64,000 nt of DNA from Candidatus Aminicenantes bacterium (GCA_027068075.1 JAMOUJ010000006.1:346706-410705), one strand, 5' to 3'; counted from the first letter of the stretch, positions 9,869 to 56,213 are shown. Numbers and translations are program-made. Notes: a model not told the origin generated them from the letters alone.

Positions 9869-11605
9869 TTAGTTTTGTTTCTCCCCTGTTTTTTCCTCCT
9901 CCAGAAAGAGATCCCGGAGTTCTCCGAAGGGCTTTCCACCGTAGCCGGCCTTGTTCAGAACATCTATGTAGTGGGTGATGTGGTCAATGACCCTTTCCGA
10001 AGGAGCGTATTTGAAGGTGACCCTCTTGAGGAACAACTCCGCTTCCTCGGGAACGATCCCCATTATTTCGTAACTCAACCTTGCCGCCTGTGACGGGTTT
10101 TTTACCACCCAGTCTATGGCTTTTTCCGCCTCCTCCAGGAAAATTCTGGAAACCTCCGGATACTCCCGCAGGACTTCCCCCTTGAAGAGAATCCCGGCGT
10201 TGGGAAGGTTTCCTTTGCCCGGGAAGAGTTTTTCCCACAGGTCCGCATATCTTATGGCCTCCTTCACCTGGCCCTTGCCCTCAAAGATGGCGAAACTGGC
10301 TTCCGGTTCCCTGAGAAGTCCCACCTCCGCCTCACCCTTCACCAGCATCTCCTTTATGTCCGCAGGCCTGCCGAAGGGATTGCCGAAGGCAAATTCAAAT
10401 TCCTCGGGGTCGTAGCCCAGGGCCTTCATCAGGAAGGTGGTTACCGCATAGGGAGGGGCTGCTTTAATCAGGGGCAGGTGGATGGGTTTTCCCCTGAGGT
10501 CTCCGAAATCCCTGGCTTCAAAGCCCCGGGTCAGGATGAAGAAATTGTCCCAGACCACCACCGCCTTCATCTTTATGTCCAGACCCTTCTGGTAGAGTTT
10601 AGCCACCGCCGCCACCGCGGAAAAACTTATGTCCGCCCGGCCGTTGATTATCCACCCCAGGTGTTTCTCCGTTTTATCCCATATCTTGAGTTCCTCTATT
10701 TTTATCAGGTCCATGAGCCGCTTTGACTGGAGAAGGCGCATGATGATCGGATAGACCACCGGGGTGGCGGACTGGATTACCAGGGGAACCCTTCCTGAAA
10801 GGGTTTTCTTTCTTTCCCTTTTGACTTCCTTTTTCTTGTAGAAGTAAACATGGTGCTCCAGGGGACCCCGCTTTTCTATGTGGACTTCAAAGCCCAGGGG
10901 TTCAATCATGTTTATCAGGGGAGTGGGGAGGAAGTATTGGATTATCCTGAAGCCCTCCCCGGGAGGGGTTTCGTTGGCCTTTTTAATGATGGCGGAAAAG
11001 GGGTCTTCCCTCCAGCCCCGAACATCCAGGACTTCAAACTCCTCCTTCCTCTCCAGCCAGTTTTTCTCCTCTCCTTCTTCTTTGGGGTTTACATAGAGGA
11101 TGTGGGTGTTGAAGGAAGGGTTTTCGTAGTGAAAGGAATAACCTTCCTCCTGGAGCATGTTTATCAGGGGAGCCGGGTAGAAGTCGTTGACCACCTTGAG
11201 AATCTGGTCCCTTTCCAGGGATCTGAGGCTCCTCAGAATCTCGGGGAAAAAGAAATCGTCCCTATCCCTGACATCCATCACCACTATTTGCTTGGCTTCC
11301 TTCACCCAATCGGGCTTTTCCCCTTCCGGGAGTGTTTTTCCCACCACCTCCCTGAGGCAGTCCGGGGCGTGTTTTGCCAGTTCCTCCTCCGTGCCTACTT
11401 CTCTGTTGAGACGGTGTAGAACCTCGCAGAGGGATAGTCCTCCTATTTTCGCCACATCGGCGAAGGTGGCCCATCGGGCCACCGCCTTGAAGATGAGGCT
11501 GTTGTTCAATTTTTTAAATTTTGGGGAAAGGGATATGAGAACCTCCTTCAATTGAGGATATTTCTCCAGGGCATCCTTTACCCTGGTGCTGGCAAGGATT
11601 ACCAT
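9869..11605 (-). CDS. Multidomain cytoplasmic protein: N-terminal DUF1858-like domain, two internal approx 60-aa repeats (DUF2249/TusA-like), C-terminal NMT1/SsuA-like periplasmic-binding-fold domain
   Basis: The N-terminus resembles the 79-aa DUF1858 protein at 39611..39850. The internal repeat is visible directly: YPAPLINMLQEEGYSFHYE.. and LPTPLINMIEPLGFEVHIE... The C-terminal 300 aa is an SBP-like fold (LLREPEASFAIFEG). There is no signal peptide. Confidence 0.4.
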   Translation of the reverse strand: MVILASTRVKDALEKYPQLKEVLISLSPKFKKLNNSLIFKAVARWATFADVAKIGGLSLCEVLHRLNREVGTEEELAKHAPDCLREVVGKTLPEGEKPDWVKEAKQIVVMDVRDRDDFFFPEILRSLRSLERDQILKVVNDFYPAPLINMLQEEGYSFHYENPSFNTHILYVNPKEEGEEKNWLERKEEFEVLDVRGWREDPFSAIIKKANETPPGEGFRIIQYFLPTPLINMIEPLGFEVHIEKRGPLEHHVYFYKKKEVKRERKKTLSGRVPLVIQSATPVVYPIIMRLLQSKRLMDLIKIEELKIWDKTEKHLGWIINGRADISFSAVAAVAKLYQKGLDIKMKAVVVWDNFFILTRGFEARDFGDLRGKPIHLPLIKAAPPYAVTTFLMKALGYDPEEFEFAFGNPFGRPADIKEMLVKGEAEVGLLREPEASFAIFEGKGQVKEAIRYADLWEKLFPGKGNLPNAGILFKGEVLREYPEVSRIFLEEAEKAIDWVVKNPSQAARLSYEIMGIVPEEAELFLKRVTFKYAPSERVIDHITHYIDVLNKAGYGGKPFGELRDLFLEEEKTGEKQN

Positions 11606-11615
11606 TTTTTACCTC

Positions 11616-12680
11616 CTAAATCTCCGGGACCAGGGGAAAGTTTCCCAGCCTTTCCGGTCCCCTTTCCGTTATTAAATAGGTGTCCTCTATCTTTACCGTG
11701 CCCAGTTCCAGGCTGCTCAGGGGGGCGTGGCCCACGCTGACCACCATGGAGGGTTTTACCGGTTTCATCCGGTCTCCGGGCACTATGGTGAGGATGGGGG
11801 TTTCCTCAAACCTGAGGCCCACGCCGTGGCCGAAGCCGTAGAGGTGAGCGGAAGAAAAACCCGCTTCGGCGTAAAGTCCAGCCACCTGCTCCTCCACCTT
11901 GTGGAAGGTCTTGTTGATCTGGACGAATTCCGAAAACCTTCTGTGGAGCGCTTCCATGGTCTTTAGGGCTTTTTCCCGGAGGGAGTCCCTCCGCAGAAGG
12001 AAGGTCCTGGCGAAATCGTAAAAATAACCGTTGTAAGAAGGCATGAGGTCCACAAGTACATAATCCTGGATTGGAACTGCCCTGGGCTTTGCGTGGACCC
12101 TGGGGGGACCGGAGTTTACATACACGAATACATCCTCGGCCCCGGCCTTCCTCATGGCGTATTCAGCCTCGGCGGCTATTTCCATCTCCAGGACCCCGGG
12201 CTTTATGGCCTTTGCGGCGGCCTCCATGCCCAGGGCCGCTATTTCCCCGGCCTTCTTTATGAGGTTCACCTCCTCGTCCTCCTTGAACATCCGCAATTCC
12301 ATGAGCAGAGGATGAACATCCACCACCCTTCTCTTAGCATGGATTTTCTCAAACATGCTGTAGAGAAGGGCGGAGGCGTCTATGTCCAGGTTGAAGCCTA
12401 TCACCGGATTGTCCACCTTCTTGTGGACCGAGTTTATGAGAACCTTCACATCCCTGTAGGGCAGGAAGTTCTCCATCCAGGTGTTCTTTTTCAGTTCCGG
12501 GATTTCTTCCTCAATGGCGAAGACCACCGGAGAGCCCTCCGCAGGGATTAAAAGGGCAGGGGGGTCCCAGTAGGTTCCGGTGAAATACCTGAAGGAATAC
12601 CGGTCCCGAAACATGGCCACATCAATGCCCTTTTTCTGTAAAAGTTGCTGAAATCTTTTAACTCTTCCTTCGTAGTCCAT
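11616..12680 (-). CDS. M24 family Xaa-Pro aminopeptidase/prolidase
   Basis: Creatinase-like N-domain and a pita-bread C-domain with HGVGLRFEETP. AGGAGG RBS 6 nt upstream. Confidence 0.8.
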   Translation of the reverse strand: MDYEGRVKRFQQLLQKKGIDVAMFRDRYSFRYFTGTYWDPPALLIPAEGSPVVFAIEEEIPELKKNTWMENFLPYRDVKVLINSVHKKVDNPVIGFNLDIDASALLYSMFEKIHAKRRVVDVHPLLMELRMFKEDEEVNLIKKAGEIAALGMEAAAKAIKPGVLEMEIAAEAEYAMRKAGAEDVFVYVNSGPPRVHAKPRAVPIQDYVLVDLMPSYNGYFYDFARTFLLRRDSLREKALKTMEALHRRFSEFVQINKTFHKVEEQVAGLYAEAGFSSAHLYGFGHGVGLRFEETPILTIVPGDRMKPVKPSMVVSVGHAPLSSLELGTVKIEDTYLITERGPERLGNFPLVPEI

Positions 12681-12741: not shown

Positions 12742-12768
12742 TTAAAAAAAGGGGGGCCTTTGCCCCCC
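12742..12768 (-). terminator. Rho-independent terminator ending the ctaB-containing operon
   Basis: Minus-strand GGGGGGGCAAAGGCCCCCC hairpin followed by TTTTTTT, directly after the stop of the gene at 12780. Confidence 0.7.
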
Positions 12769-12779
12769 TGAAAATCAGA

Positions 12780-13394
12780 TCAGTCTCCCTTTACGAAGCC
12801 AATGGCGAAGAAAAGGGCCACCAAGAAGAGAAGAGGAGCCAGAATGGTCATAACCACATTTTGGGAGAAGAAAAGGAACTGTTTCCCGGCCTTGAGGAAA
12901 GCCAGGGCCATTCCTCCCAGGCTGATGGCTATTCCGCCGATGGCCACCCAGATAAAGGATTCCTTTACGGTCTTTTTGGCCACCTGAATTATGGGAACCA
13001 GAACTATGGTGATTCCTGCTATGGCGTGGAAGAGGGGATAAACCACCTTGTTCAGGGATGCCATATCCCCGAACCTTGCTAAGGCTATGAGAACGAGGCC
13101 CACCAGCATGAGCAGGAGATACCAGGTTCCGGATTTCCTGTAGAACCGGTAGATGAGCCCCGTGGCCAGGGAGAAGGGAATCAGGCTGGCCACCACAGCC
13201 ACCAGGTCGTTTCCGAGGAGTCCCCATCCTCCGAAGAGAAGAAGAACTCCGGAAATCAGTAGCACCAGGAAGGAAATGATGTAATACACATTGCAGGTGC
13301 AGGGATTGTCCTGTTGTTTCTTCCAGAAATGTCCGATAAGATAGAGGGCTATCAAGCCCGTTAAAAGAAGAAATAGACGATCCAGGATCGTCAT
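12780..13394 (-). CDS. 7-TM membrane protein, paralog A (conserved FHxxAG motif)
   Basis: About 7 hydrophobic helices. It shares blocks with the adjacent paralog: GLLLLFGG..L.N.LV.VVA.LIP and LFHAIAGIT. Confidence 0.45.
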   Translation of the reverse strand: MTILDRLFLLLTGLIALYLIGHFWKKQQDNPCTCNVYYIISFLVLLISGVLLLFGGWGLLGNDLVAVVASLIPFSLATGLIYRFYRKSGTWYLLLMLVGLVLIALARFGDMASLNKVVYPLFHAIAGITIVLVPIIQVAKKTVKESFIWVAIGGIAISLGGMALAFLKAGKQFLFFSQNVVMTILAPLLFLVALFFAIGFVKGD

Positions 13395-13436
13395 CCTTCA
13401 CCTCCTGTAAAAAATTTATTTATGGGTAGTCCCATG

Positions 13437-14027
13437 TCAAAGGTATCTGAGGCCAGCGGAAAACGCCAGGGACATGAAAAGCAGGATCCACGGCAGAAGG
13501 GAAAAGAGAAGTTTTTGTGGCAAGAAGGGCTTTCCCATCTGGGCGGTTCCCAGTAGCATCCCGCCCAGGCCTATTATTCCTGCACCGAGGCTTATGAAGA
13601 GAACGCCGGGGGAACTCCCCCTGGCCCAAAGCAGAATTGGGAGAAAGAACAGGGTAACTCCTGCAAGGCCGTGGAAGAATACGAGGACGAGGGTTCCCCA
13701 GGGTGATTTCCGCGTGAGAGCGATCAGCACCAGGCCGGATGTGGAGAAGATAAGGTAGGGAATGTGAAGGGATGGAAAGGAGGCGCATATGAGGCCCAGG
13801 GCCATGCCCAGGGGAATCAAGGCCGCCACCACTACCACCATGGGGTTGGAGAGGATGGAGTATCCGAAGATGATGAGAAGCAGACCTGCTATGATCAGTA
13901 CCCCGAAGGCCAAGGTGAAGTAGAATACGGACCATGAGGAAAACATGTTCATGCCCGCCACCACCTGATAGGAACTTACGAGAACCATAAGAAGGAGAAC
14001 CAGTTTTGACAGCACGGTGGTTTTCAT
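13437..14027 (-). CDS. 7-TM membrane protein, paralog B (conserved FHxxAG motif)
   Basis: Similar topology and motifs to 12780..13394 (VFFHGLAGVT, VVVVAALIPLGMALGLI). The start overlaps the ctaB stop (ATGA). Confidence 0.45.
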   Translation of the reverse strand: MKTTVLSKLVLLLMVLVSSYQVVAGMNMFSSWSVFYFTLAFGVLIIAGLLLIIFGYSILSNPMVVVVAALIPLGMALGLICASFPSLHIPYLIFSTSGLVLIALTRKSPWGTLVLVFFHGLAGVTLFFLPILLWARGSSPGVLFISLGAGIIGLGGMLLGTAQMGKPFLPQKLLFSLLPWILLFMSLAFSAGLRYL

Positions 14028-14881
14028 AGGACCGTCCCTGCCATGATTATGAGCATGGAGCCCAGCATGAAGAAGGAAGCGTACTTAAACAGACCGAGGT
14101 TGACCCTTTCCGATGGGTTTTTTATGCTGTAGATCGCCAGGCCCAGAAGACCCACCGAGAGGATTCCCAGAAGCCTTAGATATCCCCACGATAGGCCCAG
14201 GGCCAGGATTCCGATCCCCACGGCCAGGGCAGCCCCTATGCTGGAGAGGGCTATTATCCATCGGGTTGTTTTAAAGCCGTAAACCGAAGGAAATGTGGGG
14301 ATTCCGGCCCTGCGGTAGTCGTCGTAATACTTCATGGAGAAGGTGAGGATGTGGGTGGGAATCCACAGGAGAATGGATAGCCCCAGGAGGACCCCTATGA
14401 GGTCCACTCTGCCCGTTCCCAGGGCTCTTCCCGCCATGATGGGCATGGCTCCGGCTATTCCTCCCCATACGATGGACCACGGAGTTCTCCGCTTAAGCCA
14501 CAGGGAATATACCACCACATCAAAGAACAATCCTGCCGCCACCAGGAGACCGTAAAGGGGTGAGAGGTAAAGGGCCATAGCGATCCCCGAGGCCGATAGC
14601 AGGGCGGCAAAGGTTAAGGCCTGACGGGTGCTCAGTTTTCCCGAGGGAAGGGGGCGCTTTCTGGTTCTCCCCATGCTCAGGTCAATGTCGCTGTCTATTA
14701 CCATGTTAAAGGCCGTGCTTCCGCCTATGGCCAGGGCAAGGCTTACTACGAGTCCCGAAAAGGTGAAGAAGTTGAGGACTGGGCATTTAGCCGTGGCGAA
14801 TCCGGCTATCCCCGTCAGAAGGAGGAGTCCGCTCTGAAGCGGCTTCACCAGTTGCCAGTAGAGGTTTATCTTTCCCCTCAT
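14024..14881 (-). CDS. ctaB: Protoheme IX farnesyltransferase (heme O synthase, UbiA family)
   Basis: UbiA-family prenyltransferase. N-terminus MRGKINLYWQLVKPLQSGLLLLTG and Asp-rich region DSDIDLSMGRTRKRPLPSG, typical of CyoE/CtaB. Confidence 0.8.
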   Translation of the reverse strand: MRGKINLYWQLVKPLQSGLLLLTGIAGFATAKCPVLNFFTFSGLVVSLALAIGGSTAFNMVIDSDIDLSMGRTRKRPLPSGKLSTRQALTFAALLSASGIAMALYLSPLYGLLVAAGLFFDVVVYSLWLKRRTPWSIVWGGIAGAMPIMAGRALGTGRVDLIGVLLGLSILLWIPTHILTFSMKYYDDYRRAGIPTFPSVYGFKTTRWIIALSSIGAALAVGIGILALGLSWGYLRLLGILSVGLLGLAIYSIKNPSERVNLGLFKYASFFMLGSMLIIMAGTVL

Positions 14882-14913
14882 TTTCCTTCTTTTATATTTT
14901 GGAACCTTCGGGG

Positions 14914-15891
14914 CTAATTTTCAACTTTCTGGGACTCTCCCTCCTGGTTCCCCTGGGTTTCGGGTTTGTGGTCCCTGACGCAGCGGAATCCCACATCTAT
15001 GTAGTAATTCCAGGGCAGAGAACTGTTGTAGGACCAGATCCTCAGGTAAACATCGTAGTTCATCCAACTTCCGCCCTTCATGAACCTATCGGACATTTTC
15101 TCGTGTTTATCGGCCACCCACTGCCATACATTTCCTGCCATGTCGTAAAGGCCGTAGGGGCTGCGGGCGTTGACGGTCTGGAAGCCTTCGTAACTCCTTC
15201 CGTTGAAGAATCCCACGGGGGTGGTTATTCCGTGCTTCACCCCCAGGATTTTCCGTATTTCCTTGTTGCTGAGGTCGTAGTTGGCGTGATGGGGGGTGAT
15301 TTCGTTGCCCCAGGGATAGGCTCTGAAATCTTCGGTGCCCCGGGCCGCCTTTTCCCATTCCGCCTCTGTGGGAAGCCTCCAGCCGTAGAATTCGCAGTAC
15401 CCCCTGGCGCCGAACCAGGTCACCATGGTGGCGGGATGGTTTTCAAATCCCTTGTCCACGGTGAAGGTTTTACCGTCAAATTTTATGCGGCTCCCGGGTC
15501 TTTCCAGGGCGTAGTAAAGATAATACCCGGGGCCTATTTTCCGTTCGTGTCTGAAGCCCGTGTACTCCTCGCCAGGATAGAATCCCTTGACATCGTTTCC
15601 CTCCACCTTTATCTTGCCTGCGGCCAGGGCTTCGTTTAGGTAGCGGGCGTATTGAAGGTTGGTGACATCGGTTACCATTATTTCGTAATCGTAATCAAGG
15701 TTCTTCAGGTGATTGAGGTTTTTGAACTGTCCCTGGAAGAAGGGACCTGCGGGCACCAGGGCCCAGGCATCGGAGGAGATTCCCGTATCTATGTATTTTA
15801 CCTCTTCGTGGGTCCACTTTTCCGGCTGATGTACGCATCCGTAGAAGGCCACCGTGGTTAAAAGGGTTATAAGCACCAGGACTTTTTTCAT
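14914..15891 (-). CDS. Formylglycine-generating-enzyme (FGE)/sulfatase-modifying-factor family protein, probable lipoprotein
   Basis: Motifs WRLPTEAEWEKAARG, YPWGNE and GGSWMN. N-terminal signal with Cys (TVAFYGC). Confidence 0.75.
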   Translation of the reverse strand: MKKVLVLITLLTTVAFYGCVHQPEKWTHEEVKYIDTGISSDAWALVPAGPFFQGQFKNLNHLKNLDYDYEIMVTDVTNLQYARYLNEALAAGKIKVEGNDVKGFYPGEEYTGFRHERKIGPGYYLYYALERPGSRIKFDGKTFTVDKGFENHPATMVTWFGARGYCEFYGWRLPTEAEWEKAARGTEDFRAYPWGNEITPHHANYDLSNKEIRKILGVKHGITTPVGFFNGRSYEGFQTVNARSPYGLYDMAGNVWQWVADKHEKMSDRFMKGGSWMNYDVYLRIWSYNSSLPWNYYIDVGFRCVRDHKPETQGNQEGESQKVEN

Positions 15892-15903
15892 CTTTAACCT
15901 CCT

Positions 15904-17400
15904 TTATGCAACTGGTCCAGTGGAGGTTTTTGCCACCTCCACTTCGGGGTTTTCCTTTTCCCTCTTCCATATTCCCTCGCCCTTGAAGAGGTCAAAGAGC
16001 CTCCAGAGAAGAAGCAGGGCGAGGATTACGAGGACCGCCGCCAGTCCCACATCCATGGCCAGGAAGATTTTGGAAACCAGGGGTTCCTGATAATAGGCGT
16101 TTACGAAGAGTCTCTTGAGGGAATAAATCGTGGCGCCGGCAAAGGCCACATCGGAACCGATGAGGAGAATCCAGCCAAACCACTGCCTTACCTTGCCCTT
16201 CAGGCCCACCATGTCAGCGTAATACATGAGGATTATGGTGGCGATGAGGGCGGCCAGAACATGCCAGTGCCCTGTCAGGGTAACCCTTTCCTCCCTCCAG
16301 GGCCAGACCCTGAAGATTTCGTCCAGTTTTATCGCCATGAATATTCCCACTCCGCTGACGGTGAAGTTCATGAAAACCATCTGCCAGAGGGCACCGAACT
16401 TCAGAGGATCGTGGAGCAGGGCCTTGAGCCCCCGGAAGAATCCCGCCTTCTCTATTCCCAGTTCGTTGAGCCTTTCACGGATAAGTTTTCTCCATCCGTA
16501 AATCACCAGCATGAGGGCTGCCAGCATGATGAAGGTGGAGCCCACATAGATTATCATGTGGGCTATGAGTTCAAAGGGAACCACCATCCACACGCCCAGG
16601 GTTATCACTATGGTGCCGAAGATCATCAGCGGCATGGCTATCTTGTGGTATATGCCCTTGAAGTCCAGCCACCTTCCCACGATGAGGGTGATGGCCACGG
16701 CTATGAGGGTGAGCATTATGTGAAGGTGTCCTATGATTCCCAACTGGAGGGGAGTTTTGTGGGCAAAGCGGACGGTGTTTTCCGCCAGGAAGGTTTCAAA
16801 GCCGTTTCCGAAGTAAGCGCCGGCCACGGCTCCGAAGAGGGAAGAACCCAGGGTGGCCACCACCATGGTGAAGAAGGCCGCCCGCTCAAGGTCCATACCG
16901 GATTTGGTGTGGGCGTATTCCGGGCTTGCCACCCGGTAGTTTTTGTTCCAGGGCCAGAGGGCTACCGCCAGAAGAAGGCCGGTGAAGAACATGAGGGAAA
17001 GTCCGAAGAGGAATAATCCGTGGAGTATCCAGTTCCTTCCGAAATAAGCAAAACCAAGGCCAAAAATCATGGAACTCAAATATCCCACCGTCACCGCAGC
17101 GTTGATGGTGAGTTTGTAAAATTTCTTCATGGGGATGATGGAGGTCATTAGATAGACCTCAATGGCGATGACGGCCATGGCGATGGTGTGGTAGAGCATT
17201 ATGATTCTACCTTCCCGGAAGAAGGGGTCAAGTTTCATGCCGAGAAGCCTTACTGTTATGTCCTTTACACCCCATTCCACCATGGGGCCGGATAGAGTTC
17301 CCCAGATGGCGGTTACCAGGGAAATAAGGGATATGGCCACCAGGACGAGGCCCTTGGTGGAAGAGAAAAGATATTCCAGCCTCTCCTTGAGAAACTTCAT
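15904..17400 (-). CDS. Large polytopic membrane protein (about 13 TM, several intramembrane His)
   Basis: 498 aa, hydrophobic throughout. His residues sit in predicted helices (HTIAM, GHLHIM, IAHMIIY, GHWHVL). It lies 12 nt upstream of the FGE-like gene on the same strand. I recognise no family with confidence. Confidence 0.4.
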   Translation of the reverse strand: MKFLKERLEYLFSSTKGLVLVAISLISLVTAIWGTLSGPMVEWGVKDITVRLLGMKLDPFFREGRIIMLYHTIAMAVIAIEVYLMTSIIPMKKFYKLTINAAVTVGYLSSMIFGLGFAYFGRNWILHGLFLFGLSLMFFTGLLLAVALWPWNKNYRVASPEYAHTKSGMDLERAAFFTMVVATLGSSLFGAVAGAYFGNGFETFLAENTVRFAHKTPLQLGIIGHLHIMLTLIAVAITLIVGRWLDFKGIYHKIAMPLMIFGTIVITLGVWMVVPFELIAHMIIYVGSTFIMLAALMLVIYGWRKLIRERLNELGIEKAGFFRGLKALLHDPLKFGALWQMVFMNFTVSGVGIFMAIKLDEIFRVWPWREERVTLTGHWHVLAALIATIILMYYADMVGLKGKVRQWFGWILLIGSDVAFAGATIYSLKRLFVNAYYQEPLVSKIFLAMDVGLAAVLVILALLLLWRLFDLFKGEGIWKREKENPEVEVAKTSTGPVA

Positions 17401-17464: not shown

Positions 17465-18568
17465 TTACGAGGCTATTACGATTCTATCTCCCCCCTCCCT
17501 CTTTCCCTTGTAGAGGGCTTCGTCGGCCTTTTCCAGGAGGGCTTCCAGGTCAATGTATTCCCTCTGGAAGTTCACCTGAACTATCCCGGCGCTCAGGGAA
17601 ATGTTCAGGTCTGGAGAGTACATCTCCGAGATCTCCTTCACCTTTTCCCTGAGCCTTTCGGCTACACTTCTGGCGCCCTGGGCATCCGCATGGGGAAGGA
17701 TTACCAGAAACTCGTCGCCTCCCCACCTTCCGATGATGTCCCCTTCCCTTAGGAGTTTGCTCCATTCCCTGGAGATTTGCTGAAGTACCCTGTCCCCGAA
17801 GGCGTGGCCAAAATTATCGTTGGCCTTTTTGAAGTTGTCCAGGTCTATCAGGATTATGGAAAGGTGGGCCTGGTTCCTGGAGAAAACCTTGATGAGGAAG
17901 TTCAACCTGTCCATGAGTTCCCTTCGGTTGTAAAGCCCTGTGAGGGGATCCCTCCGCGAAAGTTCTTCCAGTCTGACGGTGTATTCCTTGAGTTTTTCGT
18001 GGGCCACCTCAAATTTTTCCATGTAGAAGAGGGCCACGATGATGACGACCAAGAGGGAGAGGATGAAACCCCAGAAGTGGTTGTAAAAAACGCATTGGGA
18101 GGATGGACAGTGCGTTATGGCCCTGGGGTTAAGCCTTTCTATCATGACCAGGAAGGAAACCACCACCACTTCACCGATCAGGAAGAAGGCCCTCCACTTT
18201 CCGGTGAATACGATGGCGGTGAGGATGCCGAAGATTATTAGAAAATAAGGGAAACCCCCAGTCATCCCTCCGTCCCTGAGCCAGAACAGGGGAGTGTAGC
18301 CGAAGAGGGCTACCCCGTAGGCCATTACTGCAGGGAAGTAAAATTTTCTGTATTTCAGGGAGATTATGTATAAAATAAGGTAAATTACGGCTCCCACCAG
18401 GCCTATCATAACCACGAATCTGCTCTTTCCCAGGGCGATGTTTATGATTACCGAGAGGATAAAGAGGATGATCATAAACAGGAGAATGGAATTTAACACC
18501 CTGTGCCTTACGCTGAACTCCCGGGGGGAGCCCAATAAGAATTCTTCCAATCTCTTCAAATATCCCAT
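17465..18568 (-). CDS. Membrane-anchored diguanylate cyclase (5-6 TM sensor + GGDEF)
   Basis: RDPLTGLYNRR ... RWGGDEFLVILP: canonical GGDEF with the active-site motif intact. Confidence 0.8.
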   Translation of the reverse strand: MGYLKRLEEFLLGSPREFSVRHRVLNSILLFMIILFILSVIINIALGKSRFVVMIGLVGAVIYLILYIISLKYRKFYFPAVMAYGVALFGYTPLFWLRDGGMTGGFPYFLIIFGILTAIVFTGKWRAFFLIGEVVVVSFLVMIERLNPRAITHCPSSQCVFYNHFWGFILSLLVVIIVALFYMEKFEVAHEKLKEYTVRLEELSRRDPLTGLYNRRELMDRLNFLIKVFSRNQAHLSIILIDLDNFKKANDNFGHAFGDRVLQQISREWSKLLREGDIIGRWGGDEFLVILPHADAQGARSVAERLREKVKEISEMYSPDLNISLSAGIVQVNFQREYIDLEALLEKADEALYKGKREGGDRIVIAS

Positions 18569-18656: not shown

Positions 18657-19289
18657 ATGGATTGGTTGCTCAGTGAATACAGGGAAAAGAGGAGGGCCAT
18701 TGAAGGAAGACTGAGGGAATTTAGAGATGTATGGAGACGGAGGGAACCCCGGGAGGTCTTCCGGGAATTCGTCTTCTGCCTTCTTACCCCACAGTCCAGG
18801 GCAAGGGTCTGCTGGGAGGCTGTGGAGAGGATGGATAGGAGCGGAGCCCTCTGGGAGGGTAGCCCGGAAGAGGTAGCCCGGGACCTGCATGGCGTGAGGT
18901 TCAAAAACCACAAGGCCCGATACATAGTGGAGGCCAGGGAAAGGTTCTGGAAGGATGGGGAGTTCTCCCTGGTGAGAGTTCTGGGGGAGATGTCCCCGCA
19001 GGAAGCCCGGGATTACCTGGTCCGCAATGTCAGAGGAATGGGCATGAAGGAGGCAAGTCACTTCCTCCGAAACATCGGACTGGGGGAAAATCTGGCCATA
19101 TTGGACCGCCACATCCTGAAGAACCTCCTTCGCCTGGGGGTGATAGACGAACTCCCCCGAAGCCTGGGCAGGAAGACCTATCTGGAGATAGAAGAGAGGA
19201 TGAGGAAGTTTTCCCGAAAGTCTGGAATTCCCCTGTCCCACCTGGACCTTTTGTTCTGGGCCAGAGAGGCCGGGGAAATTTTCAAGTAA
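18657..19289 (+). CDS. ogg: 8-oxoguanine DNA glycosylase/AP lyase, Ogg2-type (HhH-GPD)
   Basis: 210 aa. Layout is typical of compact thermophile Ogg. HhH region MGMKEASHFLRNIGL and the catalytic Lys/Asp region. Confidence 0.7.
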   Translation: MDWLLSEYREKRRAIEGRLREFRDVWRRREPREVFREFVFCLLTPQSRARVCWEAVERMDRSGALWEGSPEEVARDLHGVRFKNHKARYIVEARERFWKDGEFSLVRVLGEMSPQEARDYLVRNVRGMGMKEASHFLRNIGLGENLAILDRHILKNLLRLGVIDELPRSLGRKTYLEIEERMRKFSRKSGIPLSHLDLLFWAREAGEIFK

Positions 19290-19298
19290 GGAGGATCC

Positions 19299-20165
19299 AT
19301 GGAGATAACGGCGGAACTTTCCGAGAAACTTAAGGAATTTCAGAAGACAGAGATAACCGAGGCCCACATCTACAGGGCCCTGGCCCGGTCTGCCAGGGGC
19401 AAAAACCGCCGTGTTCTGGAAAGGATCGCCGCCGAGGAACTGGGCCATTACGAGAGGTGGAAAAACTACACCGGTCAGGAGGTAAAACCCAGCAGGCTTC
19501 AGGTATTTCTTTACCGGATAATTTCCTTCATTTTCGGTTTGACCTTCGCGGTGAAACTCCTGGAAGGGGGAGAAAGGGAGGCCCAGGAAAAGTATTCTGT
19601 TCTTCTGGGAAAGATACCCGAGGCGGAGGAGATAATTCAGGAGGAGGTGGACCACGAAAGGGAACTCATGAATATGATAGAGGAGGAGAGGATAAACTAC
19701 ATAGGCTCCATGGTCCTGGGACTCAACGATGCCATAGTAGAACTTACCGGGGCCCTGGCAGGTCTTACCTTTGCCATACAGAAGGTGAAGGTTATAGGTC
19801 TTGCCGGGATGATAACGGGCATAGCCGCCGCCCTTTCCATGGGGGCCTCGGAATACCTTTCCCAGAAGGCCGAGGGAAACGAAAGCCCCCTCAAGGCCGC
19901 CGTCTACACCGCCATAGCCTACATCCTGGCGGTTTTTCTCCTGGTAATTCCCTACTTCCTCTTTTCGTCATACCTTCTCGCCCTGGCCGTAACCCTTCTA
20001 AATGCCCTCCTCATCATCCTTCTTTTTACCTTCTTCGTTTCGGTGGTCAGGGAGCAGAGGTTTCTTCCCCTATTCGGAGAGATGGTGGCCATAAGTTTCG
20101 GGGTGGCCTTCGTTTCCTTCCTTATAGGGTTGGCGGCCCGCCATTTCCTTAAAATAGAGATTTAA
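19299..20165 (+). CDS. VIT1/CCC1-family iron transporter with N-terminal ferritin/rubrerythrin-like domain
   Basis: N-terminal ferritin-like helices with EELGHYERW and EVDHEREL. The C-terminus has GLNDAIVELTGALAGLT and 4-5 TM, typical of CCC1/VIT1. Confidence 0.7.
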   Translation: MEITAELSEKLKEFQKTEITEAHIYRALARSARGKNRRVLERIAAEELGHYERWKNYTGQEVKPSRLQVFLYRIISFIFGLTFAVKLLEGGEREAQEKYSVLLGKIPEAEEIIQEEVDHERELMNMIEEERINYIGSMVLGLNDAIVELTGALAGLTFAIQKVKVIGLAGMITGIAAALSMGASEYLSQKAEGNESPLKAAVYTAIAYILAVFLLVIPYFLFSSYLLALAVTLLNALLIILLFTFFVSVVREQRFLPLFGEMVAISFGVAFVSFLIGLAARHFLKIEI

Positions 20166-54256: not shown

Positions 54257-54514
54257 TCAGGTTGGGTTTTGGGGTTTGGTTTTGGGGGGAGAATCTTTGG
54301 TTTTGTTTTTAGGGGAGTGTTTTGTTCCGTTGTCTTTACCCTTGTAGTCCGTAACATACCATCCGCTTCCCTTGAAGTGGATGGCAGGAGGTGAAAGGAT
54401 TTTCTTCAGGGGTCCGCCGCATTTGGGGCAGACCTTTAACGGCTCGTCGTCAAATTTCTGAATGACTTCAAATCTATATCCGCACTTCTCACAAGTGTAT
54501 TCGTAAAGCGGCAT
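54257..54514 (-). CDS. FmdB-family zinc-ribbon protein
   Basis: MPLYEYTCEKCG...CPKCGG: the two CxxC pairs of the FmdB putative-regulatory family. Basic, low-complexity tail. Confidence 0.7.
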   Translation of the reverse strand: MPLYEYTCEKCGYRFEVIQKFDDEPLKVCPKCGGPLKKILSPPAIHFKGSGWYVTDYKGKDNGTKHSPKNKTKDSPPKTKPQNPT

Positions 54515-54552
54515 CTTTACCTCCCGGCAAAATTATAACATTCTGGTCAATA

Positions 54553-54580
54553 TTGACAAGGGAGCCAATTTTGATAAAAT
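54553..54580 (+). promoter_or_regulatory. Sigma70-type promoter for tRNA-Arg (TTGACA-16-TAAAAT), with the -35 inside the palindrome GTCAATATTGAC
   Basis: TTGACA at 54553..54558 and TAAAAT at 54575..54580. The tRNA 5' end is 10 nt downstream. Confidence 0.55.
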
Positions 54581-54590
54581 ACACTTCGGT

Positions 54591-54664
54591 GCGGCTGTAG
54601 CTCAACAGGATAGAGCGTGGGATTCCTAATCCCAAGGTTGTGGGTTCGATTCCCGCCAGCCGCA
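54591..54664 (+). tRNA. tRNA-Arg (anticodon CCT)
   Basis: Hand-folded cloverleaf. 7-bp acceptor stem (GCGGCTG/CAGCCGC), D stem GCTC/GAGC, anticodon stem TGGGA/TCCCA with loop TTCCTAA (CCT), T stem GTGGG/CCCGC with TTCGATT loop, discriminator A. No encoded CCA. Confidence 0.9.
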
Positions 54665-54669
54665 CTTAA
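54621..54669 (+). repeat. Direct repeat copy 1 (49 bp): tRNA-Arg 3' half plus 5 nt; attL-like
   Basis: GATTCCTAATCCCAAGGTTGTGGGTTCGATTCCCGCCAGCCGCACTTAA. It is identical to the copy at 56339..56387. Confidence 0.85.
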
Positions 54670-55031
54670 CCTCCTTCCTGCTCCGCTATGATTTTTCTCC
54701 AACAAAATAAGGAACTCCCTCTCTTATGTGCTACATTTATGTCATGCGGATGATGATCTTTCTTCCGGGTCTATGCTTTCATCAGAATTTTTGCTTCAAG
54801 CTTTCGTATAACTTTGTTAAGGAGGATTTAAAGGATGCCTAAATCCTCTCTCTTTTTTCGAAAACTTCCTTATTGCGTCCTGGGGAAATCTATATTGCCA
54901 AGAATCTTTGGTAATGGACTATATGTTTGGTTTGCTCAACTCTTTTAATGAGCTTAGGGCAAGGCAATCTTTTCCTCAATAGAGAAAAAAGAGGATGAGA
55001 TATTACCTCGTTTACAAGGCTTCCATCGAGC

Positions 55032-55466
55032 TTACTTTATCATTTTTATTATAGGAAGAACCAATGGAGGTAATCCTGCTCTTACGGTTAAATCATGGAC
55101 TAGTTGACGGAAATATGGCCAAATATGAAGAATTAGGGTACTTTTAGCAAAAATCTCAAACATTTTCTTTGTGATAGAAACGCTGGTTCTATAATGAACC
55201 TTATATGAGGCATTTATTGCGAACTTTTCCCCGTTATTTCTTTCCGCCAACAAGAAAAAAGAGATATAAGCTGCGAAACCTTCTTCCGTTTTTTTGTAGC
55301 TGGTTTCTTCGTTTAAGGTAAGCTCAACTCCTGTAGGCTTAAATTCTTCATCTTTTTCCATAGAACATTTGATTAGTTGAATGCTATGCAGCTCCAATCC
55401 TTTTATGAAGTCTGCATATTTTTCCCTGAATTTCTTATCTAATTTCACGCTGCCCCCTCCTCCCAT
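55032..55466 (-). CDS. SecB-like chaperone (TAC-system chaperone candidate)
   Basis: Collinear similarity to SecB: LELHSIQLIKCSME vs SecB FQIQRIYTKDISFE, and C-terminal ILHIWPYFRQLVHDLTVRAGLPPLVLPII vs SecB [29 protein letters not shown]. 144 aa. It overlaps the hicB stop by 22 nt. Confidence 0.6.
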   Translation of the reverse strand: MGGGGSVKLDKKFREKYADFIKGLELHSIQLIKCSMEKDEEFKPTGVELTLNEETSYKKTEEGFAAYISFFLLAERNNGEKFAINASYKVHYRTSVSITKKMFEIFAKSTLILHIWPYFRQLVHDLTVRAGLPPLVLPIIKMIK

Positions 55467-55972
55467 TTATCTGTATATTCTATCTTAAGCGGTCGTTCTT
55501 CTATCATCCTCCACTCAAATTCTTCTAAGGTGTGGTGAAAGATATCTTTCAATTCTTTCTTGAGCTCATTTACTATTTCTTTCTTAAGATTATCTACCAT
55601 CTCTCTTTCTTTTAGAGCCTCTGAAAGTAAAGCTACAACTAATTGATTCAAGCTTATTCCTTCTCTTTTAGCTCTTTGAACTAACTTGCGATGAATGTAT
55701 TTGGGAATTCTTACAAGGAATTTTCCGCTGTATTCTTCCATCTCATAAGGAAGCGGAATCTTTCTGCCCATTTCTAAGGCTGTTTCTATCCACAATTCTT
55801 GAGCTTCTCTTATAGCATTGATTACATCTTCATAGCTGTCTCCTTCGGTCATACACCCAGGAAGTTCTGGGATTTTTGCAAAGTAGCCTTTTTCTTCTGG
55901 AATAATCACAATAGAGTAAGGTAAACTCATGAAATACTTAACTTTTTCCTTAATGTCATTTTTGGCTCTCAT
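55445..55972 (-). CDS. hicB: HicB-family antitoxin (UPF0150 RNase-H-like N-domain plus RHH-type DNA-binding domain) with about 50-aa C-terminal extension
   Basis: YSIVIIPEEKGYFAKIPELPGCMTEGDSYEDVINAIREAQELW is the UPF0150/HicB fold signature. SGKFLVRIPKYIHRKLVQRAKREGISLNQLVVALL is the HicB C-terminal DNA-binding motif. It is followed by a charged extension KEREMVDNLKKEIVNELKKELKDIFHHTLEEFEWRMIEERPLKIEYTDKWEEGAA. Confidence 0.8.
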   Translation of the reverse strand: MRAKNDIKEKVKYFMSLPYSIVIIPEEKGYFAKIPELPGCMTEGDSYEDVINAIREAQELWIETALEMGRKIPLPYEMEEYSGKFLVRIPKYIHRKLVQRAKREGISLNQLVVALLSEALKEREMVDNLKKEIVNELKKELKDIFHHTLEEFEWRMIEERPLKIEYTDKWEEGAA

Positions 55973-56213
55973 ACCATTCCTCCAAATCTAGTAAATCTCT
56001 GAGATGTTTTATGTATATCTTTTCTACCATTCGGCCCTTCCTAATTCTTATCGTTATCTCATATTCCCCTTTCACATAAATGAAATGATCTCCTCTTACC
56101 CGTCCTCTTTTATATCCAAAAAATTTAAGCACTGTTTCGACCTCCTCTTTTCTCATTTGGGAAGGTAAGTTTAACATCTTTCTTACAAGTTTTATTACCT
56201 TGCTCTTTGACAC
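55956..56213 (-). CDS. hicA: HicA-like mRNA-interferase toxin candidate (85 aa)
   Basis: Small basic protein immediately upstream of and overlapping hicB, the canonical hicA-hicB order. FFGYKRGRVRGDHFIYV loosely matches the HicA GSHH region. GTG start with a GGAGG RBS. The family assignment is weaker than for hicB. Confidence 0.45.
   Translation of the reverse strand: MSKSKVIKLVRKMLNLPSQMRKEEVETVLKFFGYKRGRVRGDHFIYVKGEYEITIRIRKGRMVEKIYIKHLRDLLDLEEWYESQK

What the first reader, a model, noticed from the sequence alone, without database searches (positions are those of the whole stretch)
12742..17400. Five-gene membrane operon: His-rich 13-TM protein, FGE-like protein, heme O synthase and tandem 7-TM paralogs
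All five genes are on the minus strand with gaps or overlaps of 0 to 40 nt, and the operon ends at a clean intrinsic terminator. FGE-family proteins are copper enzymes, and homologues such as NirV are linked to copper and nitrogen-oxide enzymes. The large membrane protein has several intramembrane His pairs, suggestive of heme or copper ligation and NnrS-like in flavour. CtaB makes heme O. The two paralogs share an FHxxAG motif in a late helix. Together this looks like an uncharacterised heme-copper biogenesis or NO-stress module rather than a canonical cta operon, since no CtaA or oxidase subunits are present.
Basis: partly seen in the sequence, partly recalled or inferred. Interest (0 to 1): 0.55.

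Follow-up and report, generated by a model that had tools for sequence, protein, structure and literature searches.

The report
Divergent heme-copper-oxidase-like enzyme operon
The large "mystery" membrane protein of this operon is a very distant, unannotated relative of the catalytic subunit of respiratory oxidases and nitric-oxide reductases, and it travels with its own heme O synthase and unusual partner proteins in thousands of mostly anaerobic bacteria, which points to an undescribed respiratory or detoxifying enzyme.

Summary
The five-gene minus-strand operon and its terminator are real. The annotations as FGE-fold protein, heme O synthase and two 7-TM paralogs all hold. The interpretation needs one major correction: an oxidase subunit is present.

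- **Fold.** The 498-aa protein (G1) has no Pfam, NCBIfam or PDB sequence match. Its AlphaFold model nevertheless matches only subunit I of heme-copper oxidoreductases (cbb3, ba3, aa3, cNOR), with probability 1.0 and TM-score 0.5-0.6.
- **Ligands.** It keeps an invariant His in TM2 and an HxH in TM10, the pattern of the two heme ligands. The canonical HH doublet of the CuB site is missing. TM6 carries an invariant HxH instead, and TM4 has an extra invariant His.
- **Family.** It has more than 3,000 members at 64-94% identity across Aminicenantes, Anaerolineae, Calditrichia, Bacteroidales, Ignavibacteria, Marinimicrobia and Geobacteraceae. The gene order G1, FGE-like, heme O synthase is kept wherever enough contig is available.
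- **Partners.** Two independent G1-FGE fusions exist. The FGE-fold lipoprotein lacks the copper-binding Cys pair. No cupredoxin or cytochrome c partner is conserved.

Best reading: a new, deeply divergent heme-copper-superfamily enzyme complex that uses heme O, is probably quinol-fed, and reduces O2 and/or NO. I found no paper describing it.

The parts
15904..17400 (-). G1: 498-aa, 12-TM protein, a deeply divergent homologue of heme-copper oxidoreductase subunit I. Invariant residues: H71 (TM2), H127 (TM4), H225/H227 (TM6), H281 (start of TM8), H378/H380 (TM10), E207, E371, R65, R364.
   Evidence: No Pfam or NCBIfam hit. AF2 pLDDT 79.8, pTM 0.86. Foldseek top hits are only HCO subunit I. More than 3,282 homologues.
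14914..15891 (-). G2: 325-aa periplasmic lipoprotein with an FGE-sulfatase fold (signal peptide plus Cys19 lipobox). It lacks the Cu-binding Cys pair of true FGE. Probable periplasmic subunit of the G1 complex.
   Evidence: PF03781 E=1e-38. Best PDB relative is SUMF2; the Cys positions are N278 and L283. Lipobox or signal peptide in orthologues. Fused to G1 in P0090 and P0254. Directly downstream of G1 in 77/80 loci.
14024..14881 (-). G3: heme O synthase (protoheme IX farnesyltransferase, CtaB/CyoE).
   Evidence: TIGR01473 227 bits against a cut-off of 210.3; UbiA PF01040 E=7e-53. Follows G2 in 72/80 loci. A UbiA gene also follows divergent G1-like genes that lack the FGE gene.
13437..14027 (-). 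G4: 196-aa 7-TM protein, paralog of G5, with the single conserved His in FFHGLAG.
   Evidence: 34% identity to G5, E=7e-16. No family match. 4-nt overlap with G3.
12780..13394 (-). G5: 204-aa 7-TM protein of an uncharacterised family. Invariant H123 about 11 residues into TM5 from the periplasmic side. Probable membrane subunit of the G1 complex.
   Evidence: AF2 pLDDT 93. No significant PDB fold match. No consistent Pfam hit across 30 members. Adjacent to G1 in 60/80 loci, and also next to divergent G1-like genes, including one on a complete chromosome.
12750..12769 (-). Intrinsic-terminator-like hairpin (8 bp, 7 G-C) followed by T7, 10 nt after the G5 stop codon.
17465..18568 (-). Upstream GGDEF diguanylate cyclase with a multi-TM N-terminal domain. 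Possibly co-transcribed (64-nt gap, no terminator-like site). Syntenic only in the closest relatives.
   Evidence: PF00990 E=2e-44. Conserved upstream in L001 and L002. No terminator between the two genes.

Best explanation

- **G1 (catalytic subunit).** It is a 12-helix membrane protein. It would bind a low-spin heme between H71 (TM2) and H380 (TM10), and a high-spin farnesylated heme (heme O, made by G3) on H378.
- **Active site.** Next to that heme sits a non-canonical third site built from one His of the TM6 HxH pair (H225/H227) and H281, in place of the usual His plus His-His triad.
- **G2.** This FGE-fold lipoprotein sits on the periplasmic face in the place of the usual cupredoxin or cytochrome c subunit. 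It cannot perform FGE copper chemistry.
- **G4 and G5.** These 7-TM proteins are additional membrane subunits.
- **Electron supply and substrate.** Because no cytochrome c or CuA partner is conserved, electrons most likely come from membrane quinol. The complex most likely reduces a small oxidant (O2 and/or NO) in organisms that live at or below the oxic-anoxic boundary.

**Shown here:** the fold homology, the invariant His pattern, the conserved gene linkage and the fusions.
**Inferred:** cofactor occupancy, electron donor and substrate.
For: - **Fold.** Of the listed Foldseek PDB matches, only HCO subunit I chains (cbb3 CcoN, ba3, aa3, cNOR NorB) combine probability >=0.96 with TM-score 0.47-0.60; the non-HCO rows have TM <=0.26 and probability <=0.60.
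- **Sequence repeat.** An internal repeat with a period of four TM helices fits the pseudo-threefold HCO architecture. TM5-8 against TM9-12 gives E=2.4e-10, against 0.1-0.3 for most reversed controls. A canonical HCO family shows a comparable signal.
- **Ligand pattern.** The His in TM2, the HxH in TM10, and the His residues in TM6 and after TM7 are invariant from 25% to 94% identity. Their spacing (71 / 225-227 / 281 / 378-380) resembles that of canonical enzymes (from memory: bovine 61/240/290-291/376-378; cbb3 60/207/257-258/345-347).
- **Cofactor.** A heme O synthase gene follows in every locus with enough sequence, and also next to divergent G1-like genes that lack the FGE gene.
- **Complex.** Two independent G1-G2 fusions retain the G2 signal/anchor helix as a 13th TM. 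A G5-like gene adjoins G1 in 60/80 loci and in distant subfamilies.
- **Independent hint.** UniRef names one member after the PROSITE cytochrome oxidase subunit I profile.
- **Donor.** No conserved c-type cytochrome or cupredoxin is found.
- **Regulation.** Crp/FNR, Rrf2 and TetR regulators recur upstream.
Against: - No sequence method links G1 to HCOs: Pfam, NCBIfam, PDB hmmsearch, hhalign against human COX1 and against a B-type family (best E=0.043, probability 1.2%).
- My residue-to-residue mapping onto canonical ligands rests on helix order and spacing only. A window-scan test of the motif matches was not significant, and I had no access to model coordinates.
- The HH doublet that defines the CuB/FeB site is absent.
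- The active-site Tyr needed for O2 reduction is not at the canonical position (M229 instead). The only candidate, Y285 (i+4 from H281), is lost in divergent subfamilies.
- There is no experimental or expression data, and no paper was found.
- The AF2 model has low-confidence loops exactly before TM6, TM8 and TM10.
Confidence: 0.6

Rival explanations
1. One reading: a heme-copper biogenesis or NO-stress accessory module. The FGE-like protein would be a copper enzyme or chaperone like NirV, the large protein an NnrS-like heme/copper protein, and the module would serve an oxidase or reductase encoded elsewhere.
For: - CtaB is a cofactor-biosynthesis gene.
- PF03781 does include NirV-type proteins implicated in nitrite reduction (bioRxiv 10.1101/2021.05.21.445229).
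- One locus (L045) has a canonical HCO plus a cupredoxin-like subunit directly upstream.
- Crp/FNR and Rrf2 regulators recur upstream.
- A DUF1858/DUF2249 protein lies nearby in the window.
Against: - G1 has the fold of the catalytic subunit itself and no NnrS or COX15 match.
- G2 lacks the Cu-binding Cys pair.
- A canonical HCO is adjacent in only 1 of 80 loci.
- 64-94% identity across phyla suits an enzyme core better than an assembly factor.
Confidence: 0.1
2. G1 is not a terminal reductase but a heme-O-handling protein, for example an oxygen-independent heme O modifying enzyme (a functional analogue of heme A synthase), or a heme O chaperone or exporter. It would reuse the HCO scaffold, with G4/G5 and G2 as helpers.
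For: - The tightest and most widespread partner of G1 is the heme O synthase gene, even in subfamilies without G2.
- No electron-donor subunit is conserved.
- The CuB-type site is non-canonical.
- CtaA is absent from the operon.
Against: - The invariant TM2 His plus TM10 HxH pattern is what holds two permanently bound hemes in HCOs.
- No precedent is known to me for an HCO-fold protein acting as a heme-modifying enzyme.
- E. coli cyoABCDE (from memory) shows that a heme O synthase gene inside an oxidase operon is normal.
Confidence: 0.12
3. The electron flow is reversed. The periplasmic FGE-fold subunit G2 (invariant H115, E116, H152) would bind a metal and oxidise a periplasmic substrate. G1 and G4/G5 would act as a multi-heme membrane wire delivering electrons to the quinone pool.
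For: - G2 is tightly coupled to G1 and sometimes fused to it.
- G2 has family-specific invariant His/Glu residues outside the generic FGE-fold motifs.
- G4 and G5 each carry one invariant His at heme-ligand depth.
- FGE-fold domains are catalytic in EgtB/OvoA-type enzymes.
Against: - Divergent G1 subfamilies work without any G2, so G2 cannot be the universal catalytic part.
- The best solved relative of G2 is the non-catalytic SUMF2.
- No substrate candidate emerges from the neighbourhoods.
Confidence: 0.08
4. G1 is a degenerate, cofactor-less HCO-fold protein reused as a transporter or scaffold, and the link with CtaB is incidental.
For: There is no sequence similarity to active HCOs, and the HH doublet has been lost.
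Against: - Seven His residues are invariant down to 25% identity.
- Sequence conservation is extreme.
- CtaB linkage holds in every locus with enough sequence and in distant subfamilies.
Confidence: 0.05

Closest known systems
Heme-copper oxidoreductase subunit I of the B and C families and the NO reductases (ba3 CbaA, cbb3 CcoN, cNOR NorB; Pfam COX1 PF00115)
   Same: - The 12-TM fold, with TM-score 0.5-0.6.
- The four-helix internal repeat.
- His in TM2, HxH in TM10, and His residues in TM6 and after TM7, at similar spacing.
   Different: - No detectable sequence similarity.
- No HH doublet; TM6 carries HxH, and TM4 carries an extra invariant His.
- No canonical active-site Tyr or NOR-type Glu cluster could be assigned.
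- No cupredoxin or cytochrome c subunit.
- The partner subunits are an FGE-fold lipoprotein and novel 7-TM proteins.
gNOR and the other recently proposed HCO families (eNOR, sNOR, nNOR; Murali et al. 2024, PMC11214002)
   Same: They show that HCO active sites can vary: gNOR replaces one CuB-type His with Asp, and several families lack the Tyr. They were also found mostly in uncultured taxa.
   Different: According to the paper those families are close to the B family or to qNOR and encode cupredoxin-type second subunits. The present family has no Pfam COX1 match, has no such subunit, and does not appear in that paper (no mention of FGE, sulfatase or Aminicenantes).
Cytochrome bo3 ubiquinol oxidase operon cyoABCDE of E. 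coli (from memory)
   Same: An HCO enzyme encoded together with its own heme O synthase (cyoE). Heme O sits in the high-spin site, and quinol rather than cytochrome c is the electron donor. This is the closest analogue for how the system probably works.
   Different: bo3 has canonical subunits I-IV and the canonical His triad with cross-linked Tyr, and it occurs in aerobes. Here subunits II-IV are replaced by unrelated proteins, and the hosts are mostly anaerobes.
SUMF2/pFGE and other non-catalytic FGE-fold proteins (e.g. T6SS immunity Tsi3; NirV as an uncharacterised member)
   Same: G2 has the FGE-sulfatase fold and lacks the two Cu-binding cysteines, as do SUMF2 (its best PDB match) and Tsi3.
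   Different: G2 is a bacterial lipoprotein genetically coupled, and sometimes fused, to an HCO-like membrane protein. Specific relatedness to NirV could not be tested.

Membership tests
Heme-copper oxidoreductase superfamily, subunit I | Sequence match to the COX1 profile (Pfam PF00115) or to solved HCO subunit I chains | tested here: not met
   - No Pfam hit at E<=0.1 for G1, nor at E<=1 for ten family members, nine divergent relatives and one G1-FGE fusion.
- PDB phmmer and hmmsearch found nothing relevant.
- hhalign against human COX1 and a B-type family was not significant.
- The only hint is a UniRef name derived from the PROSITE COX1 profile for P0037.
Heme-copper oxidoreductase superfamily, subunit I | 12-TM fold with pseudo-threefold arrangement of four-helix units | tested here: met
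   - The AF2 model has 12 long TM helices.
- Of the listed Foldseek matches, only HCO subunit I chains combine probability >=0.96 with TM-score 0.47-0.60; the non-HCO rows have TM <=0.26.
- A period-4-helix sequence repeat gives E=2.4e-10 against reversed controls of mostly 0.1-0.3.
- The same kind of repeat appears in a canonical family.
Heme-copper oxidoreductase superfamily, subunit I | Heme ligands: one His in TM2 and an HxH pair in TM10 | tested here: met
   H71 lies in model helix 59-88, and H378-W-H380 in helix 370-397. All are invariant in 78 core orthologues and 12 divergent relatives. Actual heme binding is not testable here.
Heme-copper oxidoreductase superfamily, subunit I | CuB/FeB triad: one His in TM6 plus an adjacent HH doublet after TM7 | tested here: not met
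   G1 contains no HH dipeptide (sequence). A single invariant His (A280-H281) follows TM7, and TM6 has an invariant H225-x-H227.
HCO oxygen reductases (A, B, C families) | Active-site Tyr able to cross-link to a CuB His | tested here: inconclusive
   The residue at +4 from H225 is M229 (78/78). Y285, at +4 from H281, is present in 75/78 core orthologues but is Asn in most divergent relatives. Without coordinates I cannot say whether Y285 faces the active site.
HCO complexes | Redox partner subunit (CuA cupredoxin, or cytochrome c such as CcoO/NorC) | tested here: not met
   None in the operon. CXXCH proteins appear only sporadically within 6 kb in 80 loci, and a cupredoxin-like gene only in L045.
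Formylglycine-generating enzyme (FGE/SUMF1) | FGE-sulfatase domain fold (PF03781) | tested here: met
   E=1.2e-38, covering profile positions 4-255 of 255.
Formylglycine-generating enzyme (FGE/SUMF1) | Two active-site cysteines that bind Cu(I) | tested here: not met
   In the alignment to the T. curvata FGE chain 5nxl, GGSFLCHESYC aligns with GGSWMNYDVYL, so Cys becomes N278 and L283. No conserved Cys lies in that segment among 73 orthologues. The role of these cysteines is described.
Heme O synthase (CtaB/CyoE) | Score above the curated cut-off of the equivalog model TIGR01473 | tested here: met
   227.1 bits against a cut-off of 210.3, full length.
   No such hit at E<=0.1. None at E<=1 across 30 members of the G5 family or across ten G1-family members, nine divergent relatives and one fusion.

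The most novel reading that the evidence does not exclude
G1 may be a heme-copper-superfamily enzyme that still uses all three of its symmetry-related four-helix units. In canonical oxidases only two "pores" hold cofactors. Here the second His of the TM6 HxH pair must face away from the first, as in TM10. Together with the extra invariant H127 of TM4, which is the symmetry mate of H281, it could form a third heme or metal site in the pore that serves as the D proton channel in A-type oxidases. G5 and G4 would each add a further His at the same membrane depth. That would make this a new catalytic architecture, and possibly a relic of the ancestral triplicated protein.
Probability: 0.15. Interest if true: 0.9.

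Novelty: new variant of a known kind. Interest (0 to 1): 0.7.

Why it matters
Heme-copper oxidoreductases carry out almost all aerobic respiration and much of biological NO reduction, which is a source of N2O. Their catalogue of families is thought to be nearly complete because all known ones are found with the COX1 profile.

This family escapes that profile. It has thousands of members in abundant sediment, subsurface and hydrothermal lineages (Aminicenantes, Anaerolineae, Calditrichia, Marinimicrobia, Ignavibacteria, Bacteroidales, Geobacteraceae). It also combines a rearranged active-site His set with an FGE-fold subunit and a dedicated heme O synthase.

If it reduces O2 or NO, metabolic reconstructions of these "anaerobes" and gene-based N2O and O2 budgets miss an enzyme. 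If its active site differs as the sequence suggests, it widens the chemistry and the evolutionary picture of the superfamily. It would also explain orphan heme O synthase genes in genomes annotated as lacking oxidases.

Tried and rejected
- **An exhaustive profile search of 1.84 billion representatives** found only 349 proteins and no bridge to canonical HCOs.
- **By-eye motif matches were not significant.** GHLHIM against canonical GHPEVY, AHMIIYVG against AHHMFTVG, and GHWHVL against AHFHYVL did not beat shuffled windows. I therefore do not use them as evidence.
- **The internal repeat is not unique to G1.** I first took it to be special, but a control on a canonical family gave a comparable signal. 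It supports the fold and is not a novelty.
- **The G5 fold search** gave only generic 7-TM matches (GPCRs, rhodopsins, E>0.03). A Pfam scan of 30 members gave nothing consistent.
- **Rrf2 and Crp neighbours** did not score as NsrR or Dnr/FNR equivalogs, so I do not claim NO sensing.
- **Context look-ups** for P0271 and P0282 returned contigs too short to help.
- **Eight literature searches** found no description of this family; two of them were too broad to be useful.
- **NnrS-like and CtaA-like readings** are rejected for lack of any profile match.

Full report
**Observation.** The region holds five minus-strand genes:
- G1, 15904-17400, 498 aa
- G2, 14914-15891, 325 aa
- G3, 14024-14881, 285 aa
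- G4, 13437-14027, 196 aa
- G5, 12780-13394, 204 aa

They are separated by 12, 32, -4 and 42 nt, each with a Shine-Dalgarno-like motif. A strong hairpin plus T-run at 12769-12750 closes the unit. The 64 nt between G1 and the upstream GGDEF gene (17465-18568) contain no terminator-like site, so that gene may belong to the same transcript. The consensus scans found only weak internal sites, no more than expected.

**Annotations.**
- G2 is an FGE-sulfatase-fold protein (PF03781, E=1e-38) with a signal peptide and lipobox.
- G3 passes the curated cut-off of the heme o synthase equivalog TIGR01473 (227 against 210 bits).
- G4 and G5 are paralogs (34% identity, E=7e-16).
- G1, G4 and G5 match no Pfam or NCBIfam family. 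In particular, there is no match to NnrS or COX15/CtaA.

**What G1 is.** G1 has more than 3,282 homologues, and the best 120 are 66-93% identical. None carries a Pfam domain except the FGE domain of a fusion protein. One member is named by UniRef after the PROSITE cytochrome oxidase subunit I profile.

An AlphaFold2 model built on 35 sequences (pLDDT 79.8, pTM 0.86) shows 12 long TM helices. Foldseek against the PDB returns HCO subunit I chains: cbb3 CcoN, ba3, aa3 and cNOR NorB. These have probability 0.96-1.0, TM-score 0.47-0.60 and 9-16% identity. The non-HCO rows in the list have TM <=0.26 and probability <=0.60.

Sequence methods see nothing. An exhaustive profile search of 1.84 billion representative proteins finds only 349 proteins and none of the huge canonical families. 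The family is therefore an isolated island in sequence space. None of ten family members, nine divergent relatives and one G1-FGE fusion, has a COX1 hit.

**Conserved residues.** The following are invariant across 78 core orthologues and 12 relatives at 25-62% identity: Y70-H71, H127, E207, H225, H227, H281, E371, H378-W379-H380, R65 and R364.

Placed on the model helices, H71 is in TM2, H127 in TM4, H225/H227 in TM6, H281 at the start of TM8, and H378/H380 in TM10. The order and spacing resemble the canonical ligand set (from memory: bovine H61, H240, H290/H291, H376/H378). The differences are:
- There is no HH dipeptide anywhere in G1.
- TM6 has HxH instead of a single His.
- TM4 has an additional invariant His.

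Two His residues at i and i+2 on a helix point to opposite sides, as in TM10. H225 and H227 therefore probably serve two different sites.

M229 occupies the +4 position that holds the cross-linked Tyr in A/B-type oxidases. Y285 (+4 from H281) is kept in 75/78 core members but not in the divergent subfamilies.

I could not superimpose coordinates, and a window-scan test of my by-eye motif matches was not significant. The residue mapping is therefore an inference from helix order, not a demonstrated equivalence.

**Internal repeat.** Sub-alignments of G1 match each other with a period of four helices:
- TM5-8 against TM9-12: E=2.4e-10
- TM4-7 against TM8-11: E=1.8e-8
- TM2-3 against TM10-11: E=3e-5

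Reversed-sequence controls give 0.1-0.3, with one at 4e-4. An unrelated TM family gives >0.02. The repeat equates H71=H227=H380, H225=H378 and H127=H281. This is the known pseudo-threefold symmetry of subunit I (from memory). A control on a canonical B-type family gave a comparable signal (E=2e-10). The repeat therefore supports the fold assignment and is not itself novel.

**Genomic linkage.** A scan of one genome per species found at least 539 species with a relative. The 80 best come from Aminicenantes (94% identity, the likely source of the window), Anaerolineae and other Chloroflexota, Calditrichia, Marinimicrobia, Ignavibacteria/Melioribacteraceae, Bacteroidales, KSB1 and Geobacteraceae/Desulfuromonadaceae.

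Gene linkage in those 80 loci:

| Partner | Loci with the gene | Loci with enough flanking sequence |
|---|---|---|
| G2 directly after G1 | 77/80 | all 76 with >=1.1 kb downstream |
| G3 next | 72/80 | all 68 with >=2.1 kb downstream |
| G4/G5-like gene adjacent (often upstream) | 60/80 | 40 of 50 with enough flank on both sides |

Two independent fusion proteins (796 and 785 aa) join G1 to G2 through the G2 signal/anchor helix. This places the FGE domain in the periplasm next to the cytoplasmic C-terminus of G1.

Divergent G1-like genes keep parts of the set:
- G5-like + G1-like + UbiA (P0292)
- Crp + G1-like + UbiA (P0259)
- G5-like + G1-like on a complete 1.63-Mb chromosome (P0329)

The heme O synthase and the 7-TM protein are thus the oldest partners, and the FGE-fold protein is specific to the main branch.

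Recurrent neighbours are TetR, Crp/FNR and Rrf2 regulators, DUF423 and several unknown membrane proteins. The regulators do not score as NsrR or Dnr. No cytochrome c or cupredoxin is conserved. Only L045 has a canonical HCO with a cupredoxin-like subunit next door.

**The partners.**
- *G2.* Its closest solved relative is SUMF2, the non-catalytic FGE paralog. The two Cu-binding cysteines of FGE align with N278 and L283, and no Cys is conserved there in 73 orthologues. G2 therefore cannot be a copper FGE. FGE-fold proteins without these cysteines are known as non-enzymatic binders. G2 has its own invariant H115, E116 and H152, whose role is unknown.
- *G5.* It models as a confident 7-TM bundle (pLDDT 93) with no significant structural or profile relative. 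Its one invariant His lies about 11 residues into TM5 from the periplasmic side, at a depth similar to the heme ligands of G1.

**Mechanism proposed.** G1 is the catalytic subunit of a new HCO-superfamily complex.
- It binds a low-spin heme (H71/H380) and a high-spin heme O (H378) supplied by G3.
- It carries a rearranged third site (one TM6 His plus H281, perhaps with M229).
- G2 caps the periplasmic face, and G4/G5 are membrane subunits.
- Electrons come from quinol, because no soluble-carrier subunit is conserved.
- The substrate is O2 and/or NO.

The operon logic resembles cyoABCDE of E. coli, where an oxidase is encoded with its heme O synthase (from memory). According to Murali et al. 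2024, HCO families without the active-site Tyr are not expected to reduce O2, and varied active sites are compatible with NO reduction. That favours NO for the Tyr-less divergent subfamilies and leaves O2 open for the core family with Y285.

Confidence by step:

| Claim | Confidence |
|---|---|
| HCO-fold homology | about 0.9 |
| Heme-O-containing redox enzyme | about 0.7 |
| Whole statement, including quinol and O2/NO | about 0.6 |

**Comparison and novelty.** The family fails the sequence criterion and the HH-doublet criterion of HCO subunit I. It meets the fold and heme-ligand criteria. I therefore describe it as a new, deeply divergent branch, or variant, of the superfamily and not as a member of any described family. 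It is not among the families of Murali et al. 2024, which are B-family- or qNOR-related and have cupredoxin subunits. Eight full-text searches found no description. The only prior trace is an automatic UniRef name.

**Verdict.** Interest is 0.7. The family is widespread and strongly conserved, and it is testable by expression, heme and metal analysis, and structure.

Noticed in passing
window 54489-56213: G+C drops to 0.41 immediately after tRNA-Arg(CCT) at 54591-54665. The small minus-strand ORFs there (55956-56213, 55445-55972, 55032-55466) look like a HicA/HicB-type toxin-antitoxin pair plus one more gene. This would be a small island inserted next to the tRNA.
   Followed up: partly
window 9869-11605 (-): A 578-aa protein with DUF1858, two DUF2249 repeats and an NMT1-like C-terminal half. 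It is syntenic with the operon in the two closest Aminicenantes loci (L001, L002), together with an M24 peptidase (11616-12680). Its function is unknown and it matches no NCBIfam model.
   Followed up: partly
L045 312-5202: In one Chloroflexota MAG, a canonical HCO subunit I (PF00115, 208 bits; B-type-like) lies directly upstream of the G1 cluster, together with a cupredoxin-like subunit II, two Crp/FNR genes and a 265-aa unknown membrane protein. This is the only one of 80 loci with such a neighbour.
   Followed up: partly
loci L001-L080, within about 5 kb of the G1 gene: Several unannotated membrane-protein families recur beside the cluster: about 147 aa in 19 loci, about 358 aa in 17, about 229 aa in 17, and about 262 aa in 13. 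The last of these also follows the UbiA gene in L089. DUF423 occurs in 11 loci and a FadL-like porin in 6. These may be further subunits or substitutes for G4/G5.
   Followed up: partly
L082 7001-8356 and L084 7001-8311: Shorter G1-like proteins (436-451 aa, about 30% identity) stand alone without FGE, UbiA or G5-like neighbours. Their riboflavin/GltX/GGDEF context suggests a related lineage. The invariant His set is kept.
   Followed up: partly
P0403 family (relatives of L045 3562-5202): A canonical HCO family also shows a sequence-detectable internal repeat by hhalign (residues about 83-167 against about 431-519, E=2e-10). The pseudo-threefold symmetry of subunit I is therefore visible in sequence profiles generally.
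   Followed up: yes
window 18657-20165 (+): Divergently transcribed from the GGDEF gene are an 8-oxoguanine DNA glycosylase (18657-19289) and a VIT1-family iron transporter (19299-20165). This is a loosely oxidative-stress-flavoured neighbourhood.
   Followed up: no
window 14899-15639 (+), 16261-17016 (+), 12775-13401 (-): Long ORFs antisense to, or out of frame with, G1, G2 and G5. They have biased, low-complexity-like translations, are fully nested in the confirmed genes, and are best treated as non-coding shadows.
   Followed up: no
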